Sequence record: NC_019705.1
Length of the DNA stretch: 38,759 nt
Strand: one strand, 5' to 3'
Source of the DNA: Escherichia phage mEpX2
Positions 24,407-35,550 of this stretch are shown one piece after another (within the stretch, counting starts at the first letter, position 1; every line of letters starts with the position of its first letter). Both the position numbers and the translations under genes were made by a program. Below the pieces are notes generated by a model. The model searched no databases. It was not told the DNA's origin and was given only the letters and a program-made list of their open reading frames with translations.

Positions 24407-24577
24407 TCAGAATGGACATGGACCAAGGAAATAACGCTGATTTAATACTTCGGTCTTTGCCGCATTTAAAAAGACGCGAACACCTTCACGATCTCCCTTC
24501 TGGCGATACATTAACGCCTGCTGCGTGTACATGCGTCTCTGTAACTTGCTCTCCTTCACTGTGGTTGCAAGTGACAT
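24407..24577 (-). CDS. hypothetical small protein
   Basis: 56-aa ORF below track size cutoff; strong SD AAGGAG 7 nt upstream of ATG; stop abuts recombinase SD. Confidence 0.35.
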   Translation of the reverse strand: MSLATTVKESKLQRRMYTQQALMYRQKGDREGVRVFLNAAKTEVLNQRYFLGPCPF

Positions 24578-24656
24578 GAATATCTCCTTCGTTACCGATT
24601 AATTCTTTCATCTGACGAATGAATTCTTCGTCTGACCAGTTATCTGTAAAACTCAT
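24486..24656 (-). CDS. hypothetical small protein
   Basis: ORF with ATG overlapping stop of upstream Kil-like ORF; overlaps the 24407-24577 ORF in another frame so only one may be real. Confidence 0.3.
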   Translation of the reverse strand: MSFTDNWSDEEFIRQMKELIGNEGDIHVTCNHSEGEQVTETHVHAAGVNVSPEGRS

Positions 24657-24805
24657 TTCCTGCGATACCACGGATGGTTGATAGCTGATTTCATCGCTTT
24701 ATTTGCTTCAAGCCACATTTTTGAATCACCAATAAATCTGGCTATTACTGCTTTGTTCTGTGCAGCACGAAGCATCTGGTGATTAATGGCTATTTCATTG
24801 CGCAT
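24653..24805 (-). CDS. Kil-like small protein (putative host division inhibitor)
   Basis: 50-aa ORF with SD GGAGG; motif IARFIGDSKMWLEANKA resembles remembered lambda Kil. Confidence 0.4.
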   Translation of the reverse strand: MRNEIAINHQMLRAAQNKAVIARFIGDSKMWLEANKAMKSAINHPWYRRK

Positions 24806-24924
24806 AACGCCTCCAGTTGTTTCTTTGCTGCTCTGATTAATTGTTTAACTCGGCGTGATAATTCAGATTCGTGCGGGTAGAAAGCGGACATGACGCCGCT
24901 ACCCGCGAGCTGAAAGTGCATCAT
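24790..24924 (-). CDS. CIII-like protein (putative FtsH inhibitor)
   Basis: 44-aa ORF from internal ATG with SD AAGGAG; MMHFQLAGSGV...PHESELSRRVKQLIR resembles remembered lambda CIII; position upstream of kil-like gene. Confidence 0.4.
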   Translation of the reverse strand: MMHFQLAGSGVMSAFYPHESELSRRVKQLIRAAKKQLEALCAMK

Positions 24925-24999
24925 GGGTAACTCCTTATATTTGATTGCATAACGAAAATGCCTCTCGTGAAGCATTATTGGTATGCGGTAAAGCCGCGC

Positions 25000-25368
25000 T
25001 CAGGCGGCTTTGATAGTCATATCATCTGAATCAAATATTCCTGATGTATCGATATCGGTAATTCTTATTCCTTCACTACCATCCATTGGAGGCCATCCTT
25101 CCTGACCATTTCCATCATCCCAGTCGAACTCACAAACAACACCATATGCATTTAAGTCTTTCGAAATTGCTATAAGCAGAGCATGTTGCGCCAGCATGAT
25201 TAATACAGCATTTAATACAGCGCCGTGTTTATTGAGTCGGTATTCAGAGTCTGACCAGAAATTATTAATCTGGTGAAGTTTTTCCTCTGTCATTACGTCA
25301 TGGTCGATTTCAATTTCTATTGATGCTTTCCAGTCGTAATCAATGATGTATTTTTTGATGTTTGACAT
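25000..25368 (-). CDS. hypothetical highly acidic protein
   Basis: 122-aa ORF rich in Asp/Glu; preceded by terminator and SD. Confidence 0.55.
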   Translation of the reverse strand: MSNIKKYIIDYDWKASIEIEIDHDVMTEEKLHQINNFWSDSEYRLNKHGAVLNAVLIMLAQHALLIAISKDLNAYGVVCEFDWDDGNGQEGWPPMDGSEGIRITDIDTSGIFDSDDMTIKAA

Positions 25369-25388
25369 CTATTCATTTCCTCATAGAT

Positions 25389-25415
25389 AAAAAATCGCCC
25401 TCACATTGGAGGGCA
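25389..25415 (-). terminator. intrinsic terminator (early-left operon)
   Basis: On minus strand GCCCTC-loop-GAGGGC hairpin followed by UUUUUAUC. Confidence 0.45.
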
Positions 25416-25532
25416 AAGAAGATTTCCAATAATCAGAACAAGTCGGCTCCTGTTTAGTTACGAGCGACATTGCTCCGTGTATTCACTCGTTGGAATGAAT
25501 ACACAGTGCAGTGTTTATTCTGTTGCTTATTC

Positions 25533-25560
25533 CAAAAATAAAGGCCGACTATGCGGCCTC
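25533..25560 (-). terminator. intrinsic terminator (early-left operon)
   Basis: On minus strand AGGCCG-loop-CGGCCT hairpin followed by TTATTTTTGG; overlaps stop of upstream gene. Confidence 0.45.
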
Positions 25561-25741
25561 AGAATGGTTTGTATCCATGTTTAAAGGCGAAATCGTATGC
25601 CTCATCCTTAGTGCTGAAGTATTCATAATCAGCAAATCCATCACGATAAAACTTGCAGCACCAATGAGGCGGAATGCCATCCTCAGGACCATAGTCTTGA
25701 TGGAACACATCCTCGACGATGATATTTTCATCTTTTCCCAT
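25559..25741 (-). CDS. hypothetical small acidic protein
   Basis: 60-aa ORF downstream of N in early-left operon. Confidence 0.5.
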   Translation of the reverse strand: MGKDENIIVEDVFHQDYGPEDGIPPHWCCKFYRDGFADYEYFSTKDEAYDFAFKHGYKPF

Positions 25742-25803
25742 ATATCACCTCAAATAAGTGGTTTGCTGCCAAAACAATGAACCATCCGGAAATTCCAGAT
25801 AGT

Positions 25804-26031
25804 TCATAATTCACTCTTCAATACTTCCAACTTACTAATCGCCGATAGATATCCGCGCTGATAGGGCATCATCATTCCTTCGAGCTTGCCACTTCTTAAC
25901 TCCTCCCTGAGCAATTGTATTGCTTGATCAATAACCTCTGCCTTAGCGTCCTTTATGGCTTGCTTGCGGGGCTTTGCTTTCTGCTTTGGCAGATTTCTCA
26001 AGCATGATGGAATGTATGTCTGATTCATCAC
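25804..26031 (-). CDS. hypothetical protein
   Basis: 75-aa ORF immediately downstream of N gene. Confidence 0.5.
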   Translation of the reverse strand: MMNQTYIPSCLRNLPKQKAKPRKQAIKDAKAEVIDQAIQLLREELRSGKLEGMMMPYQRGYLSAISKLEVLKSEL

Positions 26032-26295
26032 TTACCTCGCTGTAACCTGCTTACTTGTACGATGACCAGCTGCGAAAAGCGCAACTTCTGGCAGGCAGAC
26101 AGTACCACCTTCAACTTCCTTCTGAAGCGTTCCGGCAAGCGAAATGGCTTTTGTTACGCGTGTACTGCATGTGCTATTTGCTACCCGGCGCGAAAGAGAA
26201 GCGTCCTGCATTGCCTGCTCACGTTGAGCCTGTCTGCGTGCTCTGCGGCGATTTCTGGCGTTATCGTCAGCCAGATATGTAATGACTACTGTCAT
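26032..26295 (-). CDS. N: antitermination protein N (P22 gene 24-like)
   Basis: 87-aa ORF with N-terminal arginine-rich motif NARNRRRARRQAQ; preceded by boxA/boxB nutL; first gene of leftward operon. Confidence 0.7.
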   Translation of the reverse strand: MTVVITYLADDNARNRRRARRQAQREQAMQDASLSRRVANSTCSTRVTKAISLAGTLQKEVEGGTVCLPEVALFAAGHRTSKQVTAR

Positions 26296-26401
26296 GTTGA
26301 CCTCCGATGATTGACTTTGGCGGTGACGCGCCGGGTGCTTATCTTCCGGTTGCCGTCGTGCAGCTGCACTTCACGTCACCCCAAAGCCAACTACTCTTTG
26401 G

Positions 26402-26443
26402 TTCCCGCATTTCGGCGGGACAATCCCATCAATGTTAAAGAGC
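26402..26443 (-). promoter_or_regulatory. nutL (boxA GCTCTTTAACA plus boxB hairpin)
   Basis: On minus strand boxA then UUCCCGC-CGAAAU-GCGGGAA hairpin, identical to the boxB at 28098-28117. Confidence 0.6.
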
Positions 26444-26490
26444 CTGCCAATCTGTTCCGTTTGGCTTCCAGCGTCCTGCTGATGGCTAAA

Positions 26491-26577
26491 GAATACTGTA
26501 GGTATTTTATTGTGTAAATACCCAAGGTATTTATTTTTGATGAAATAATGATAAGCAAATGAATACAAAGGATATTT
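26491..26577. promoter_or_regulatory. OL operator cluster / pL region
   Basis: Three palindromes AATAC-N5-GTATT (26492-26506, 26517-26531, imperfect 26562-26576) in AT-rich DNA between rex-position gene and N. Confidence 0.6.
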
Positions 26578-26662
26578 ATTTTTTCGGTGTCTGCTTGTTC
26601 AGTGCTTTTTATGCGGGATATGTGAAGTGGATCCCGATAGCTATTGCTGCCGGGATTATAGG

Positions 26663-27052
26663 TTAGTCAGCGAAGGTTAAGACGAGAATTACCTTAATGA
26701 TGTCTGCTACAACAGACACGGCCATAGATAAACCAAAGACGATCCAAGCCACAGTGATGTCTTCACTACCATCGTATAGAGTTCCGTAATCACTGGTGTA
26801 AGGCGTAAATGTCGCGCCTTGATACAATAGGTATAAGCTTGATCCATAGAGGATAAATGCAGATATCCCTTGTATTGCTATGATCACCAGAATCATGAAA
26901 CGAGCTGATCTATGCGCCCAAGCCTGGCTTATTTTTTCTGATAGAGATTTCGCAATAAAAGCATGCGCTAAGCCGTAAATTGTCGAGATTGCCAACATCC
27001 CAAAAAAGCTTGCTATAGCGGTTCCAACCATAATCGCCCCTTGCGTGATCAA
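26663..27052 (-). CDS. small integral membrane protein co-transcribed with repressor (rex/sie-position)
   Basis: 129-aa ORF with three predicted hydrophobic helices; start overlaps cI stop codon; located between cI and OL/pL. Confidence 0.6.
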   Translation of the reverse strand: MITQGAIMVGTAIASFFGMLAISTIYGLAHAFIAKSLSEKISQAWAHRSARFMILVIIAIQGISAFILYGSSLYLLYQGATFTPYTSDYGTLYDGSEDITVAWIVFGLSMAVSVVADIIKVILVLTFAD

Positions 27053-27765
27053 ACCAGCCTTAGTTTTGTCTCAATTGCAACGCCTATAATCTTGCAGTTT
27101 CCATTGATTGGCACGAGAGGCCATGCAGGATTAAGTCCCTTGAGGTATTTATTTCCGCCGTCGATTATCAGCTTCTTGAATGTTGCTTCGTTAGAGTCAG
27201 AAAGTTTTGCTATGACCAAGCTGCCGTTGATCGCCTCCCTTCCGGTATCGAAAAGAACGAATGTTCCCTCTGGAATGCTTAACCCAACCGGTGCCGTCAT
27301 TGAATCACCTTCCACTTTAAGCCAGAACGCATTACCTTGAATATGCGCGTCAGACTCAAGCCAAACATCTATGTCTTTAATGGTGTATGGTTCGCATGCT
27401 TCACACCACGAGCCAGCCTGGATACTGCTTAACACCGGATACCTCTTTCCTGCTCTGTATTCCCCTGCATACCTTACGTTGGCATCGCTCTTAAGGCTTT
27501 CTGCCTGTTCTGCAACCTTGGCAGCAATTGACTGGCTAAAATCAGCAATTGAGACTTGCAACAGCCGTGCAAAACCAGATGCAACCTCAACGTTTAGCGC
27601 GTTTCTGCCATTAAGATAATGCCCTACCGCTCCTTGGGTGATACCCAGTTCATCAGCGATTGAGTATTGGGTTATTCCCAATTCTTTCTTTTTTGACTCA
27701 TACAAAGCCTTAAGCCGCTTAGCGTCTTCGAGCTGTTCTGTCGTCAGTGATTTTTTATTTTCCAT
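27049..27765 (-). CDS. cI: CI-like repressor (HTH + S24 LexA-type peptidase domain)
   Basis: 238-aa ORF with N-terminal HTH, Ala-Gly cleavage site and GDSM...K Ser/Lys dyad; divergent from cro across operators. Confidence 0.9.
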   Translation of the reverse strand: MENKKSLTTEQLEDAKRLKALYESKKKELGITQYSIADELGITQGAVGHYLNGRNALNVEVASGFARLLQVSIADFSQSIAAKVAEQAESLKSDANVRYAGEYRAGKRYPVLSSIQAGSWCEACEPYTIKDIDVWLESDAHIQGNAFWLKVEGDSMTAPVGLSIPEGTFVLFDTGREAINGSLVIAKLSDSNEATFKKLIIDGGNKYLKGLNPAWPLVPINGNCKIIGVAIETKLRLV

Positions 27766-27800
27766 AGCTTAATTCTAATAGCTAAGGTACTTAAACTAAA

Positions 27801-27841
27801 AATACCCTGAGTATTGATTGCTTTGAATACCTGTAGTATTC
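27801..27841. promoter_or_regulatory. OR operators / pR-pRM region
   Basis: Palindromes AATACCCTGAGTATT (27801-27815) and GAATACCTGTAGTATTC (27825-27841) between divergent cI and cro. Confidence 0.65.
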
Positions 27842-27871
27842 TTTGTTCATGGTTAATAACGGAGAGTGCAT

Positions 27872-28066
27872 ATGATTCGAATGACACTTGCCGATTACGC
27901 CAAAATCCATGGACAGGCTAAAGCAGCCAGTGACTTTGGTGTAATCCAGTGCGCTATCAGCAAGGCCATTCTGGCAGGCCGTAACATTATGGTTACGGTA
28001 AAGCCTGATGGCAGTGTGATTGGAGAGGAAGTTCGTCCTTTCCCAAGCAACAAGAAAAACAAATAG
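27872..28066 (+). CDS. cro: Cro repressor
   Basis: 64-aa ORF with SD GGAGAG; resembles lambda Cro (TL.DYA...GQ.K.A.D.GV.Q.AI.KA...GR, C-terminal PFPSNKK). Confidence 0.85.
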
Positions 28067-28072
28067 TAACAC

Positions 28073-28117
28073 CGCTCTTTAACAGTCATGGTCCTCATTC
28101 CCGCCGAAATGCGGGAA
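28073..28117 (+). promoter_or_regulatory. nutR (boxA CGCTCTTTAACA plus boxB hairpin)
   Basis: boxA at 28073-28084; boxB TTCCCGC-CGAAAT-GCGGGAA at 28098-28117, between cro and cII. Confidence 0.65.
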
Positions 28118-28174
28118 TACAACGCGCATAAGTTGATGCGCATAACTTCTTATTAGTTAAGGAAATACTTACAT

Positions 28175-28453
28175 ATGCAACTTACAAGTACTCGCAAGAA
28201 AGCGAATGCAATTACAAGCAACATCCTGAATCGAATTGCTGTACGTGGTCAGCGAAAGGTTGCCGACGCGTTAGGGATTAATGAATCGCAAATTTCGCGA
28301 TGGAAAGATAGCTTCATCCCCAAAATGGGAATGCTTCTGGCTGTTCTTGAATGGGGTGTTGAAGACGAGGAGTTGGCGGAACTGGCTAAGAAAGTAGCCA
28401 GAATGCTGACAAAAGAAAAAGCCCCGAAGAACGGCGAATTCTTCGAGGCCTGA
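28175..28453 (+). CDS. cII: CII-like transcriptional activator
   Basis: 92-aa ORF; motif SQISRWK...IPKxxMLLAVLEWGV matches remembered lambda CII. Confidence 0.8.
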   Translation: MQLTSTRKKANAITSNILNRIAVRGQRKVADALGINESQISRWKDSFIPKMGMLLAVLEWGVEDEELAELAKKVARMLTKEKAPKNGEFFEA

Positions 28454-28487
28454 TGTAGAAAGACTGGATCAATCCACAGGAGTAATT

Positions 28488-28649
28488 ATGACAAAACGTC
28501 GTAAGAAATACCAGGAAAAAGAAGAGATTCGACACCCTGATTCACCTGAGGGATTAGTGGTAGCCGCAGCAAATAACAGGGCGTTCGCAGAGCGCCTTGT
28601 TGGTGTTTACAGACTAGCCAAAGCAGGAGTGAAACATGGGCGTCGTTAA
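28488..28649 (+). CDS. hypothetical small basic protein
   Basis: 53-aa ORF below track cutoff; SD AGGAG 7 nt upstream; stop overlaps start of replication initiator. Confidence 0.3.
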   Translation: MTKRRKKYQEKEEIRHPDSPEGLVVAAANNRAFAERLVGVYRLAKAGVKHGRR

Positions 28650-29526
28650 GTTAGCTGATTACAGGCATAACCCTGTACAACATCAGGAGGCATCCAGTAT
28701 GGGGTATGTCTCTATACACCGCCAGTTTATGGACAGCAGGCTCTATAAGGACTCTCAGGCAGTACATCTTTGGCTTCACTTAATCCTCAAGGCTAATCAC
28801 AAATCTACTGTCGTCAATACGGATATCGGGCCGATAACTGTTGATCGCGGTCAGATGATAACTGGACGCCCGTCGCTGGTCAGAGAAACATTCATCCCCG
28901 ACAACAAAGTTCGGAGCTTATTACGGACTTTTGAGTCGAAAGGGATGCTTAATATTTGCTCGATGGGGAAGAAATTTAGCCTGTTTACAATCGTTAAATA
29001 TGACGATTTTCAGGCAAAAAATTGTCCAACGGTTGTCCAACGGTTGTCCAACGCAAACACCAGTAATGGCGCGGCTCTCAGCGGAGATTGTCCAACGGTT
29101 GTCCAACAGTTGTCCATAAACAATAATATAAATAATATCTCTAATACTGACGTATTAGAGAGTGCTACAGCAGACAAAAAGTCTGACAAGAAAAAACCTT
29201 CCGTCAGCTGTCAGGATGTTGTCGATGCTTACCACGAAATCCTTCCTGAAGCGCCAAGAATCCGCGCACTGAATGACAAGCGTAAAAACCAGATCCGAAC
29301 GTTCTGGCGCAAAGCCGGAGTGATAACCCGCCAGCTTGACGGGCATGGGTTCACGATGCAGGACTGGAGAAATTATTTGAGCTACGTAGGCGAAAATTGC
29401 CGATGGATGTTCGAAGAACGCCCAAACCATCAACGCGGAACCGTCTGGCACAAAAAGGGATTTGATTTCCTGCTTAACGACAATACCTACCTGAAAGTTC
29501 GTGAGGGTGAACACGATGACCGATAA
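28636..29526 (+). CDS. replication initiation protein (O-like)
   Basis: 296-aa ORF containing internal origin iterons, followed by helicase gene. Confidence 0.75.
   Translation: MGVVKLADYRHNPVQHQEASSMGYVSIHRQFMDSRLYKDSQAVHLWLHLILKANHKSTVVNTDIGPITVDRGQMITGRPSLVRETFIPDNKVRSLLRTFESKGMLNICSMGKKFSLFTIVKYDDFQAKNCPTVVQRLSNANTSNGAALSGDCPTVVQQLSINNNINNISNTDVLESATADKKSDKKKPSVSCQDVVDAYHEILPEAPRIRALNDKRKNQIRTFWRKAGVITRQLDGHGFTMQDWRNYLSYVGENCRWMFEERPNHQRGTVWHKKGFDFLLNDNTYLKVREGEHDDR
29032..29128. repeat. replication origin iterons (6 x TTGTCCAACGG-like, 11-bp period) with adjacent AT-rich segment
   Basis: Two clusters of three tandem 11-mers at 29032-29064 and 29098-29128 inside O-like gene, then AT-rich 29129-29160. 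Confidence 0.7.
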
Positions 29527-30952
29527 TTTTTATGCGCCGCCCCATAGCATCGAGGCAGAGCAGGCGGTGATTGGTGGATTGCTTCTGGATGATGACAGCA
29601 GTGAGCGCGTCCAGAAGGTTCTGGCGATGCTGAAGCCTGACTCATTTTACAGCCGGCCACACAAAATCCTTTTCGAAGAAATAACCAGAATGCACCGTGA
29701 GCAAAAGCCAGTAGATGGCCTGACGCTTTTCGATGAACTGGAGCGTAAATCGTTAACGGCGTCTGTTGGCGGTTTTGCTTATATCGCTGAGATCGCAAAG
29801 AACACGCCAAGCGCAGCAAACATCGTTGCCTATGCAATGCAGGTTCGTGAAACCGCAATGGAACGCTACGCCATCAACCGCATGACTGAAGCGACGGAAT
29901 TGCTCTATTCCCGCAACGGAATGACTGCAACGCAGAAGTACGAAGCTATTCAGGCGATTTTCACGCAACTGACAGACCATGCAAAAACCGGATCGCGTCG
30001 CGGCCTTCGCTCATTTGGTGAGGTCATGGAAGACTGGGTTAGCGACCTTGAGAAGCGATTTGACCCGTCAGGCGAACAACGAGGAATGAGCACAGGGATC
30101 CCATCGCTGGACAGGATGCTGTCACCGAAAGGTCTGGTGAAAGGCTCTCTGTTTGTCATTGGCGCTCGCCCTAAGATGGGGAAAACGACGCTATACAGCC
30201 AGATGGCAATCAATTGCGCAGTGCATGAGAAAAAGCCCGCTCTGATGTTCAGCCTTGAAATGCCAGGTGATCAGATACTGGAAAAACTGGTAGGGCAGAA
30301 GTCTGGTGTTAACCCGAATATTTTTTACCTTCCGGCGACAAATGACGCTGATGACGGCTATCAGGGTGATTACGATGGTGACTTCAACAGGGCGATCGAA
30401 ACAGCCAATCGCTTGAGTGAAATCGACCTGCTTTATATCGACGACACGCCGGGATTATCTCTGGCTCAAATCGTCAGCGAAAGCCGTCGAATCAAGCGAG
30501 AAAAAGGATGTGTTGGGATGATTCTGGTCGATTACCTGACACTAATGACCGCTGAGAAAGCCGATCGTAACGACCTTGCTTACGGCATGATCACCAAAGG
30601 ACTGAAGAACCTTGCCAAAGAGCTTGATTGCGTTGTTGTGCTTCTGACGCAGCTTAACCGCGCACTGGAAAGCCGAACCAATAAACGCCCATTACCAAGT
30701 GACTCGCGCGATACAGGGCAGATTGAACAGGATTGCGATTATTGGGTGGGGATCCATCGTGAAGGTGCTTTTGATGACAGCGTTCCTCCTGGTGAAACCG
30801 AACTAATCCTTCGCCTCAATCGTCATGGCAATACCGGCACGGTGTATTGCATTCAGGCAAATGGCGCTATTTATGACACAGACCAACAGTCTGCTGAAAT
30901 GCGCCGCCGTGAACGAGAGGAACCGCAGTCCAAGAAGAAAGGAGGATTCTGA
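29516..30952 (+). CDS. replicative DNA helicase (DnaB family)
   Basis: 478-aa ORF with Walker A GARPKMGKT and DnaB-like N-terminal domain; ATG overlaps O stop. Confidence 0.85.
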   Translation: MTDNFYAPPHSIEAEQAVIGGLLLDDDSSERVQKVLAMLKPDSFYSRPHKILFEEITRMHREQKPVDGLTLFDELERKSLTASVGGFAYIAEIAKNTPSAANIVAYAMQVRETAMERYAINRMTEATELLYSRNGMTATQKYEAIQAIFTQLTDHAKTGSRRGLRSFGEVMEDWVSDLEKRFDPSGEQRGMSTGIPSLDRMLSPKGLVKGSLFVIGARPKMGKTTLYSQMAINCAVHEKKPALMFSLEMPGDQILEKLVGQKSGVNPNIFYLPATNDADDGYQGDYDGDFNRAIETANRLSEIDLLYIDDTPGLSLAQIVSESRRIKREKGCVGMILVDYLTLMTAEKADRNDLAYGMITKGLKNLAKELDCVVVLLTQLNRALESRTNKRPLPSDSRDTGQIEQDCDYWVGIHREGAFDDSVPPGETELILRLNRHGNTGTVYCIQANGAIYDTDQQSAEMRRREREEPQSKKKGGF

Positions 30953-35226: not shown

Positions 35227-35550
35227 ATGAAGATGCCAGAAAAAAATGACCTGTTAGCCGCCATTCTCGCGGCAAAGGAACAAGGCATCGGGGCAATCCT
35301 TGCGTTTGCAATGGCGTACCTTCGCGGCAGATATAATGGCGGTGCGTTTACAAAAACAGTAATCGACGCAACGATGTGCGCCATTATCGCCTGGTTCATT
35401 CGTGACCTTCTCGACTTCGCCGGACTAAGTAGCAATCTCGCTTATATAACGAGCGTGTTCATCGGCTACATCGGTACTGACTCGATTGGTTCGCTTATCA
35501 AACGCTTCGCTGCTAAAAAAGCCGGAGTAGAAGATGGTGGAAATCAATAA
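35227..35550 (+). CDS. S: holin (lambda S-like, dual start Met1/Met3)
   Basis: 107-aa ORF MKMPEK... with three TM segments; immediately upstream of endolysin. Confidence 0.9.

What the first reader, a model, noticed from the sequence alone, without database searches (positions are those of the whole stretch)
26663..27052. Small membrane protein translationally coupled to the CI repressor in the rex/sie position
A 129-aa ORF with three predicted hydrophobic helices starts on the cI stop codon (TTGA overlap) and ends just before the OL/pL operators. It therefore sits in the cI transcript that is expressed in lysogens, which is where lambda carries rexA/rexB. It is a single gene much shorter than RexA+RexB, so it could be an uncharacterised one-component exclusion or abortive-infection function.
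Basis: partly seen in the sequence, partly recalled or inferred. Interest (0 to 1): 0.65.

Follow-up and report, generated by a model that had tools for sequence, protein, structure and literature searches.

The report
Orphan membrane protein in repressor operon
A conserved 122-residue, three-helix membrane protein of unknown function (HkaS of phage HK620) is encoded right after the prophage repressor gene, in a slot where related prophages carry known anti-phage genes, so it is a reasonable but untested candidate for a small phage-exclusion protein.

Summary
The window is coliphage mEpX2. The ORF is real and is the gene annotated hkaS ("unknown") in phage HK620 (phrog_6534, unknown function).

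The proposed start is wrong. The TTG that overlaps the cI stop is not conserved. The true start is ATG 27031, which gives 122 aa, has its own Shine-Dalgarno sequence and lies 17 nt after the cI stop.

It is a genuine gene. dN/dS is 0.135, and all seven lineages compared are exactly 122 aa. The model (AlphaFold2, pLDDT 89) and hydropathy give three membrane helices, with a basic cytoplasmic loop and an acidic periplasmic loop.

The family is an orphan. Only one 50%-identity cluster exists among 1.84 billion proteins, and there are no Pfam, NCBIfam, PADLOC or PDB hits. It shows no relation to RexB, P22 SieA or the phage's own S holin.

It always sits cI → hkaS → OL/pL → N. All 146 of 5,426 complete E. 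coli genomes with this cI also carry hkaS.

In sister prophages with related cI genes, the same slot holds RexA, BstA, PDC-S42, PDC-M63A or PDC-M03A: 7 of 20 sampled genes, against 0 of 10 control genes.

A lysogen-expressed exclusion role is therefore plausible (about 0.5 for any anti-phage function) but unproven. Nothing distinguishes an entry block from abortive infection. Interest is moderate.

The parts
26663..27031 (-). hkaS coding sequence (122 aa plus TAA stop), a three-pass inner-membrane protein; this is the corrected gene
   Evidence: phrog_6534 at E 2.9e-79, covering positions 1-122 of 122. Annotated hkaS in HK620 and 'hypothetical protein' in mEpX2 with this start. dN/dS 0.135. 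AlphaFold2 pLDDT 89.3 with three long helices. Hydropathy and charge distribution.
27032..27052 (-). cI-hkaS junction: a 17-nt spacer containing the Shine-Dalgarno AAGGGG (27042-27037), and the non-conserved TTG (27052-27050) that overlaps the cI stop TGA (27051-27049)
   Evidence: Sequence read. An SD-like AAGGA/AAGGGG lies 5-9 nt before the ATG in all lineages. The TTG is out of frame or blocked by a stop in other lineages. Spacers are 17, 18 or 19 nt in 61, 13 and 4 IMG/VR copies.
27049..27765 (-). cI repressor gene (HTH_3 plus Peptidase_S24), the upstream gene of the inferred operon
   Evidence: Pfam PF01381 and PF00717. Annotated cI in mEpX2 and HK620.
26631..26656 (-). Stem-loop 7 nt after the hkaS stop codon; candidate 3' end or terminator of the immunity transcript, though it is not followed by a U-run
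   Evidence: RNA fold. The Salmonella cassette has a hairpin of unrelated sequence at the same place. The function of either hairpin is inferred.
26492..26576 (.). Three OL operator-like sites (26562-26576, 26517-26531, 26492-26506) overlapping the pL promoter (26518-26490, minus strand)
   Evidence: The pattern AATAC-N5-GTATT gives 5 hits in the window against 0.75 expected, all flanking cI-hkaS. Promoter scan. HK620 annotates OL1, OL2 and pL at the same places.
27801..27840 (.). OR2 and OR1 operator sites on the other side of cI, closing the bracket that encloses cI and hkaS
   Evidence: HK620 annotation.
26404..26442 (-). nutL (boxA-like GCTCTTTAA and boxB hairpin CCCGCCGAAATGCGGG) between pL and N
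   Evidence: Sequence read. HK620 annotates nutL here. The same boxB sequence occurs downstream of cro, where HK620 annotates nutR.
26032..26295 (-). N antiterminator gene, the left boundary of the cI-N slot
   Evidence: Pfam PF25694 at E 1e-16.

Best explanation
hkaS encodes a real, conserved 122-residue inner-membrane protein with three transmembrane helices. The predicted topology has the N-terminus in the periplasm, a basic loop in the cytoplasm, an acidic beta-hairpin loop in the periplasm and the C-terminus in the cytoplasm.

It is the second gene of the immunity operon. It would be transcribed with cI from pRM in lysogens, and from pRE during establishment of lysogeny, and translated from its own Shine-Dalgarno sequence.

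Its most likely job is to protect the lysogen against phages that the repressor cannot stop. It would act alone at the inner membrane, most probably by interfering with genome entry, as the three-helix P22 SieA and T4 Imm proteins do.

Shown here: the gene is real, it encodes a membrane protein, it sits in this position, it is retained with this cI, and the slot is a defence hotspot. Inferred only: expression in lysogens, any anti-phage activity, and the entry-block mechanism.
For: 1. It is a real gene under purifying selection. dN/dS is 0.135 at dS 0.69. All seven lineages compared are exactly 122 aa. 79 of 80 IMG/VR copies are intact.
2. It has operon architecture. The spacer after cI is 17-20 nt with an SD sequence in every lineage. 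No promoter or terminator was found between the genes. A hairpin follows the stop codon. The pair is bracketed by OL and OR operators.
3. It has been retained for a long time. All 146 complete E. coli genomes with this cI also have hkaS, and none has one without the other. Linkage persists where synonymous sites are saturated. It also persists where the cI DNA-binding domain has been swapped (L040).
4. It travels with the immunity module on four virion types: HK620 (podovirus), HK630 (lambda-like), mEpX2 (HK97-like) and Stx phages. The function is therefore independent of the virion, replication and lysis modules. That suits a lysogen-benefit gene that does not harm its own phage.
5. Sister prophages carry known or candidate defence genes in the same slot. 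These are RexA (E 1.7e-109), BstA (1.2e-115 and 1e-112), PDC-S42 (1e-84), PDC-M63A (8e-45 and 3e-38) and PDC-M03A (5e-119). That is 7 of 20 sampled genes, against 0 of 10 full-length hits among control genes from the other flank. By my own Fisher calculation this is about p = 0.04.
6. The literature treats the cI-N region as a hotspot of accessory genes co-transcribed with cI (PMC8585504, PMC7067206).
7. The architecture matches single-gene entry blockers. P22 SieA is a prophage-expressed inner-membrane protein of 162-164 aa with three predicted transmembrane helices. It is sufficient on its own for exclusion, and its best-conserved motif is predicted to be cytoplasmic (PMC10883804). HkaS likewise has no soluble domain that could sense infection, and its best-conserved parts are the cytoplasmic loop and the C-terminus.
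Against: - There is no sequence or fold relationship to any exclusion or defence family: PADLOC, Pfam, NCBIfam, PHROG function and PDB; hhalign to RexB 0.6% and to SieA 0.3%; and only generic helical bundles in the fold searches.
- No experiment on this gene was found.
- Position is circumstantial. 13 of the 20 sampled slot genes have no full-length match to a defence model.
- There is no arms-race signature. Polymorphisms among close variants are conservative and are enriched in TM1, not in the periplasmic loop.
- Lambda/HK022/mEpX2 and lambda/mEpX1/mEpX2 triple lysogens have been built (PMC3442831). An mEpX2 prophage therefore may not block these phages completely, although the order of lysogenisation is not stated.
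- Expression in lysogens is not shown for this phage.
Confidence: 0.35

Rival explanations
1. One-component abortive-infection effector. HkaS would be a small membrane channel or depolariser, working like RexB but without a RexA sensor. It would be triggered by an event at the membrane during superinfection and would kill or arrest the cell before the invader replicates.
For: - It occupies the same slot as lambda rexAB and BTP1 bstA, both abortive-infection systems. RexA and BstA occupy the slot in sister prophages.
- It has invariant polar residues inside the membrane: Q54 in TM2, and D110 and K113 in TM3. TM1 has a run of small residues spaced four apart (G3, A7, G11, A15), of which G3 and G11 are invariant. 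Such features suit oligomeric pores.
Against: - hhalign against RexB gives 0.6% probability.
- HkaS has three helices, not four, and no partner gene. cI is directly upstream and the operators directly downstream.
- It has no soluble domain that could sense infection.
- A constitutively expressed pore-former would have to stay harmless through induction on four different phage chassis.
- It lacks the charged C-terminal tail of class I holins, as can be read directly from the sequence.
Confidence: 0.15
2. A lysogen or lysogeny function that is not anti-phage. Two versions are possible. HkaS could be a lysogenic-conversion membrane protein that changes host envelope physiology or stress tolerance. 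Or it could help the immunity circuit, for example by modulating a membrane protease such as FtsH/HflKC that controls CII.
For: - Retention with one repressor clade is absolute (146 of 146), and the two genes have co-diverged deeply. That is more than is typical for a patchy accessory gene.
- The gene would also be made from pRE together with cI during establishment of lysogeny (an inference from the gene order).
- The conserved surfaces are cytoplasmic.
- There is no diversifying pattern.
- Most sampled slot genes (13 of 20) have no full-length match to a defence model.
- HK620's cIII is annotated as truncated.
Against: - The linkage is largely explained by the gene being trapped between cI and its OL operators.
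- hkaS stays linked when the cI DNA-binding domain is replaced by a different one (L040).
- Repressors sharing a 76% identical C-terminal domain lack it (L057 and L059). It is therefore not tied to the operator specificity or to the cleavage domain.
- Salmonella cassettes carry hkaS together with an intact cIII.
- Known occupants of this slot are defence genes.
Confidence: 0.3
3. A spurious or decaying ORF with no function.
For: It has no known domain. It is short and hydrophobic, and its G+C is lower than the phage average (42.3% against 50.1%).
Against: - dN/dS is 0.135 at dS 0.69.
- The length is identical in seven lineages down to 50% identity, with invariant motifs.
- 79 of 80 copies are intact.
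- An SD sequence is conserved in every lineage.
- The predicted fold is confident.
Confidence: 0.02

Closest known systems
Phage lambda RexB (with RexA), the abortive-infection system in the cI operon
   Same: Same position and strand, between cI and OL/pL inside the immunity region. RexB is also a small polytopic inner-membrane protein. The Siccibacter sister prophage (L016) carries RexA at this position.
   Different: No sequence relationship: hhalign 0.6% and no Pfam or PADLOC RexB hit. HkaS has 122 aa and three helices; RexB has 144 aa and, from my own knowledge, four helices. There is no RexA-like partner. HkaS starts 17 nt after cI, whereas in lambda rexA comes first.
Phage P22 SieA, a single-gene superinfection-exclusion protein
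   Same: Prophage-encoded inner-membrane protein with three predicted transmembrane helices and no large soluble domain. Its best-conserved segment is predicted to be cytoplasmic. One gene is sufficient, and it blocks DNA delivery (PMC10883804). This is the closest match in architecture.
   Different: No sequence relationship: hhalign 0.3%. SieA has 162-164 aa, its own promoter in the immI region next to the ejection-protein genes, and the motif FxRYPxEAxxFNK, which HkaS lacks. HkaS activity is untested.
BstA of Salmonella prophage BTP1
   Same: Encoded directly downstream of cI and transcribed from the cI promoter in lysogens (PMC7067206, PMC8585504). BstA occupies the same slot in sister prophages L019 and L054.
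   Different: The BstA-like proteins in L019 and L054 are 308-314 aa and gave no transmembrane segment in the hydropathy scan. BstA acts at sites of phage DNA replication (PMC8585504), whereas HkaS is a 122-aa integral membrane protein. There is no homology.
Phage T4 Imm and HK97 gp15, small inner-membrane blockers of genome entry
   Same: From my own knowledge, these are small phage-encoded inner-membrane proteins that act alone against incoming phage DNA.
   Different: No hit at E up to 1 to any Pfam or function-annotated PHROG family, so none to any model of these proteins in those libraries. They differ in size, number of helices and genomic position. Neither was compared directly here.
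Class I holins (lambda S type)
   Same: Similar size and the same predicted topology: three helices, N-terminus out and C-terminus in (my own knowledge for S105).
   Different: The phage already has an S-type holin at 35227-35550 (PF05106, E 2.4e-30), and hhalign to it gives 0.2%. HkaS has no charged C-terminal tail and sits in the immunity operon, not the late operon.

Membership tests
HkaS / phrog_6534 (function unknown) | Full-length sequence match to the family profile | tested here: met
   E 2.9e-79; residues 8-129 of the 129-codon ORF match profile positions 1-122 of 122. 99% identical to HK620 hkaS.
Lambda RexB | Sequence homology to RexB | tested here: not met
   No Pfam or PADLOC hit. 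hhalign of the HkaS profile against lambda RexB gives probability 0.6%.
Lambda RexB | An adjacent RexA sensor gene (two-component system) | tested here: not met
   cI ends 17 nt upstream and the operators begin 86 nt downstream, so there is no room for a partner. No RexA is present in any hkaS locus.
Lambda RexB | Location in the cI transcript between cI and OL | tested here: met
   Gene order cI-hkaS-OL/pL-N, compared with the lambda map. Co-transcription itself is inferred.
Lambda RexB | Exclusion of T4 rII and other phages by loss of membrane potential | not testable with these tools
   Needs plating and membrane-potential assays.
P22 SieA-type exclusion proteins | Sequence homology, including the conserved FxRYPxEAxxFNK motif | tested here: not met
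   hhalign probability 0.3%. The motif is absent from the HkaS sequence. The only significant PHROG hit is phrog_6534.
P22 SieA-type exclusion proteins | Inner-membrane protein with three transmembrane helices | tested here: met
   Prediction only: AlphaFold2 helices and hydropathy with charge bias. SieA's features are taken from PMC10883804.
P22 SieA-type exclusion proteins | One gene is sufficient to block DNA delivery by superinfecting phage | not testable with these tools
   Needs expression of hkaS alone, followed by plating, K+ efflux and DNA-entry assays.
Class I holins | Homology to a holin family, and location in the lysis cassette | tested here: not met
   No Pfam holin hit. The phage's own S holin lies elsewhere, and hhalign to it gives 0.2%.
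Known or candidate defence proteins (PADLOC-DB v2) | Match to any defence-system model | tested here: not met
   No family at E up to 1.
Accessory genes of the cI-N slot co-transcribed with the repressor | On the same strand directly after cI, with no intervening promoter or terminator, and ahead of OL/pL | tested here: met
   Hotspot status comes, and from PMC8585504 and PMC7067206.
Accessory genes of the cI-N slot co-transcribed with the repressor | Expressed in the lysogen | not testable with these tools
   No transcript data for mEpX2 or HK620 lysogens were found.

The most novel reading that the evidence does not exclude
HkaS would be a self-sufficient, 122-residue 'one-component Rex'. 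It would be a new family of membrane protein that, with no cytoplasmic sensor, both detects a superinfecting phage at the inner membrane and stops it, either by blocking entry or by collapsing the membrane potential. It might also interfere with other prophages' exclusion systems. That could underlie the published observation that an mEpX2 prophage cancels lambda's negative effect on co-induced HK022 and mEpX1 (PMC3442831).
Probability: 0.15. Interest if true: 0.7.

Novelty: new member of a known kind. Interest (0 to 1): 0.4.

Why it matters
- **Prevalence and neglect.** The gene is carried by 2.7% of complete E. coli genomes. It is also carried by the model phage HK620, by HK630, HK140 and mEpX2, and by Stx2c-converting and other EHEC phages. 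Every record seen here calls it hypothetical or unknown.
- **What a positive result would add.** If it excludes phages, it would add a very small, single-gene, sequence-novel family to the short list of inner-membrane exclusion proteins. It would also show that searching the slot after cI in one repressor family is a productive way to find defence genes. Several neighbouring slot genes found here match no defence model either.
- **Practical relevance.** It bears on phage therapy and on phage typing of E. coli and Salmonella lysogens.
- **What a negative result would add.** It would be a rare case of a non-defence membrane protein locked into an immunity operon.
- **Ease of testing.** mEpX2 grows on and lysogenises E. 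coli K-12 MG1655, so the test is simple.

Tried and rejected
1. **TTG 27052 as the start codon.** Rejected. It is out of frame or blocked by a stop in other lineages.
2. **The 35-aa hydrophobic ORF on the plus strand (26559-26666), convergent with hkaS.** I considered it as a possible small toxin-like peptide. Rejected. Its ATG lies inside the OL3-like operator, and in the Salmonella cassette the frame stops after 10 codons in unrelated sequence (my reading of the output).
3. **The 65-aa minus-strand ORF 26371-26568**, annotated 'hypothetical protein' in HK630 and phi296. Rejected as a likely artefact, since it overlaps pL, the operators and nutL.
4. **Holin, RexB and SieA.** Rejected by profile comparison.
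5. **Immunity proteins of pore-forming colicins.** Their size and three-helix topology are similar (a lead from my own memory). No Pfam family of any kind was hit, so there is no support.
7. **Remote homology.** A profile search of 1.84 billion representatives found only the family itself plus one 44-aa fragment. A PDB sequence search found nothing.
8. **Literature.** Searching 'hkaS' alone returns fungal herbarium codes. 'HK620' with 'hkaS' returns nothing. Degnan et al. 2007 is not held in the library.
9. **An arms-race signature in the periplasmic loop.** Not found.
10. **A strict tie to one operator specificity.** Rejected by the L040 hybrid repressor.

Full report
**Identity of the window and the gene.** The window matches Escherichia phage mEpX2 (PV340544.1, an HK97-like siphovirus) at 100% identity in both stretches compared, 26300-27100 and 24500-30000. 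Its immunity region is about 99% identical to that of the P22-like phage HK620. It belongs to phrog_6534 (unknown function) with E 2.9e-79.

**Check of the observation.**
- The 129-codon ORF 26663-27052 on the minus strand exists.
- Its TTG does overlap the cI stop codon as TTGA at 27052-27049.
- That start is not conserved. In Salmonella homologues an in-frame TAA directly precedes the ATG. In the Hafnia-type homologue the spacer is 18 nt, which puts the TTG out of frame.
- Among 78 close IMG/VR copies the spacer is 17 nt in 61, 18 nt in 13 and 19 nt in 4.
- Every lineage has an SD-like AAGGA or AAGGGG 5-9 nt before the ATG.
- The gene is therefore 26663-27031, giving 122 aa. It starts 17 nt after cI with its own ribosome-binding site. 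Close spacing may still allow some coupling, but not through overlapping codons.
- Downstream, a hairpin (26656-26631) follows the stop codon. A hairpin of unrelated sequence occupies the same place in the Salmonella cassette.
- Next come three operator-like sites and pL. The motif AATAC-N5-GTATT occurs 5 times in the window against 0.75 expected. Three of the sites lie left of hkaS and two lie right of cI. cI and hkaS together are thus enclosed by the OL and OR operators.

**It is a real, constrained gene.**
- Between the window and the Hafnia-type copy, dS is 0.69 and dN/dS is 0.135. For cI the value is 0.029.
- Seven lineages down to 50% identity are all exactly 122 aa, with no indels. The invariant residues include Q36, W38, H40, A43-R44-F45, Q54, D110, K113 and the C-terminal VLTFAD.
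- 79 of 80 IMG/VR copies are intact.
- HkaS accumulates amino-acid changes four to five times faster than cI: 50-83% identity against 84-96%.
- The changes among close variants are conservative. They are enriched in TM1 and not in the periplasmic loop, so there is no sign of diversifying selection.

**What the protein looks like.**
- AlphaFold2 gives a confident model (pLDDT 89.3, pTM 0.76) from a shallow alignment of 8 sequences. It has helices at 2-29, 41-74 and 89-121, a short helix at 31-38 and a small beta-hairpin at about 78-86.
- Hydropathy gives transmembrane segments at 3-27, 45-70 and 96-119.
- Loop 28-44 carries four Lys/Arg and one acidic residue. Loop 71-95 carries no Lys/Arg and four acidic residues.
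- By the positive-inside rule, the N-terminus and the acidic hairpin face the periplasm, and the basic loop and the C-terminus face the cytoplasm.
- The best-conserved regions are the cytoplasmic loop, the TM2-to-periplasm junction (YLLYQGATF) and the cytoplasmic end of TM3. There is no soluble domain.

**Homology.**
- The family is a narrow orphan. It has 12 clusters at 90% identity. A profile search found one 50%-identity cluster and one fragment among 1.84 billion representatives. The named hosts are Escherichia, Salmonella, Hafnia and Buttiauxella.
- Pfam, NCBIfam, PADLOC and PDB sequence searches found nothing above noise.
- Fold searches returned only generic helical bundles.
- Profile comparisons gave 0.6% to lambda RexB, 0.3% to P22 SieA and 0.2% to the phage's own S-type holin. 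That holin sits in the lysis cassette at 35227-35550.

**Genomic context elsewhere.**
- Every homologue examined lies in the order cI → hkaS → operators/pL → N.
- In 5,426 complete E. coli genomes, 146 carry hkaS. The same 146 carry the cI-hkaS pair, and none has one gene without the other.
- The cassette occurs on at least four virion types: HK620, HK630, mEpX2, and Stx2c or Sepvirinae phages.
- A scan of species-representative genomes with cI found 80 related repressor loci. Only one, L040 from a Buttiauxella, has hkaS. There the repressor has a different N-terminal DNA-binding domain fused to an HK620-like C-terminal domain. hkaS is therefore not tied to a single operator specificity.
- Repressors that share the C-terminal domain at 76% identity (L057, L059) lack hkaS, so it is not tied to that domain either.
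- The simplest reading of the linkage is that the gene is trapped between cI and its OL operators and is kept by selection.

**The slot is a defence hotspot in this repressor family.**
- I sampled 20 genes of at least 100 aa lying just downstream of related cI genes. Seven are full-length matches to PADLOC models:

| Locus | PADLOC model | E-value |
|---|---|---|
| L016 | RexA | 1.7e-109 |
| L019 | BstA | 1.2e-115 |
| L054 | BstA | 1e-112 |
| L023 | PDC-S42 | 1e-84 |
| L028 | PDC-M63A | 8e-45 |
| L056 | PDC-M63A | 3e-38 |
| L061 | PDC-M03A | 5e-119 |

- Two further genes gave partial or weak matches: a CapP-like peptidase (L072) and a NYN-domain protein (L021).
- Ten control genes from the opposite flank gave only partial, domain-level hits. 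My own Fisher calculation for 7 of 20 against 0 of 10 gives about p = 0.04.
- Membrane or envelope proteins recur in the slot.
- This agrees with the literature. The cI-N region is described as a mosaic hotspot holding rexAB in lambda and bstA in BTP1, and bstA is transcribed from the cI promoter in lysogens (PMC8585504, PMC7067206).

**Mechanism.**
- I commit to a lysogen-expressed, single-gene exclusion protein acting at the inner membrane, most probably against genome entry (confidence 0.35). The closest architectural analogue is P22 SieA. SieA has three predicted helices, sits in the inner membrane, is sufficient alone, and has a conserved cytoplasmic motif (PMC10883804).
- A RexB-like abortive-infection effector without a sensor is possible (0.15).
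- A non-defence role in host physiology or in the lysogeny circuit is a serious rival (0.30). The reasons are the absolute retention with one repressor clade, the conserved cytoplasmic face and the lack of an arms-race signature.
- Lambda/HK022/mEpX2 and lambda/mEpX1/mEpX2 triple lysogens exist. An mEpX2 prophage also cancels lambda's negative effect on co-induced HK022 and mEpX1, by an unknown mechanism (PMC3442831). This argues weakly against a complete block of those phages. It also offers a phenotype worth testing with an hkaS deletion.

**Novelty and verdict.**
- The gene is already annotated but uncharacterised, and its kind (an accessory gene in the cI operon) is well known.
- The family is sequence-novel, so I file it as a new member of a known kind.
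The coupling detail is wrong, and the function remains inferred.
- Interest is 0.4. The most novel reading not excluded is a one-component Rex-like exclusion protein, with probability about 0.15 and interest 0.7 if true.

Noticed in passing
window 26559-26666 (+): A 35-aa, very hydrophobic ORF (MNTKDIYFFGVCLFSAFYAGYVKWIPIAIAAGIIG) converges on hkaS and overlaps its stop codon. Its ATG lies inside the OL3-like operator. In the Salmonella cassette the frame stops after 10 codons in unrelated sequence, so it is probably spurious.
   Followed up: yes
window 26538-26581: HK620's annotated OL3 maps to window 26538-26554, which does not fit the operator consensus. The third consensus-like site (AATACAAAGGATATT) is at 26562-26576, inside what HK620 annotates as the terminator tIMM. 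The better hairpin candidate for the end of the immunity transcript is at 26656-26631.
   Followed up: partly
window 25511-25780: GenBank mEpX2 annotates an 89-aa ORF on the plus strand here. A 60-aa minus-strand ORF (25559-25741) ends exactly at a strong terminator-like hairpin with a U-run (25560-25541) and looks like the more plausible gene. Neither ORF hits NCBIfam or PADLOC (and the 60-aa ORF hits no Pfam family).
   Followed up: partly
window 26371-26568 (-): The 65-aa ORF annotated 'hypothetical protein' in HK630 and phi296 overlaps pL, the OL operators and nutL. It is probably an annotation artefact.
   Followed up: partly
window 26404-26419 and about 28100-28115: The same boxB hairpin sequence, CCCGCCGAAATGCGGG, occurs on the pL side (minus strand) and on the pR side (plus strand). 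This is consistent with nutL and nutR for the N protein encoded at 26032-26295.
   Followed up: no
L040:2501-3540 (uncultured Buttiauxella sp., CBCPKK010000004.1): A hybrid repressor: its N-terminal helix-turn-helix domain is different, and its C-terminal domain is HK620-like. It is followed after 20 nt by a 122-aa HkaS homologue. This is evidence of recombination inside cI that kept the C-terminal domain and hkaS together.
   Followed up: partly
L022:3406-4173, L026:3265-4392, L070:3382-5400, L079:3159-3956, L041:3193-3723: Genes of 177-673 aa sit in the same slot after cI in Serratia, Providencia, Proteus, Vibrio and Erwinia prophages. None matches any PADLOC model; the two that were also scanned against Pfam (L022, L026) gave no hit. 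By position they are further candidates for unknown prophage defence or accessory genes.
   Followed up: no
L018:3332-4111 and L038:3385-4611: Larger membrane proteins occupy the slot after cI in Tatumella (DUF1275, five hydrophobic segments) and Scandinavium (MscS-like channel domains). Membrane cargo therefore recurs at this position.
   Followed up: no
mEpX2 as a whole (literature, PMC3442831): In triple lysogens, an mEpX2 (or mEp235) prophage removes lambda's roughly 100-fold negative effect on co-induced HK022, mEp213 or mEpX1, while lambda itself stays suppressed. The authors left the mechanism unexplained, and no gene has been assigned.
   Followed up: no
L001 (HK620) 896-1036: HK620's cIII is annotated as shortened by an internal stop codon. 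At the corresponding position mEpX2 has a 44-aa gene annotated 'hypothetical protein; repressor'. I did not examine this further.
   Followed up: no
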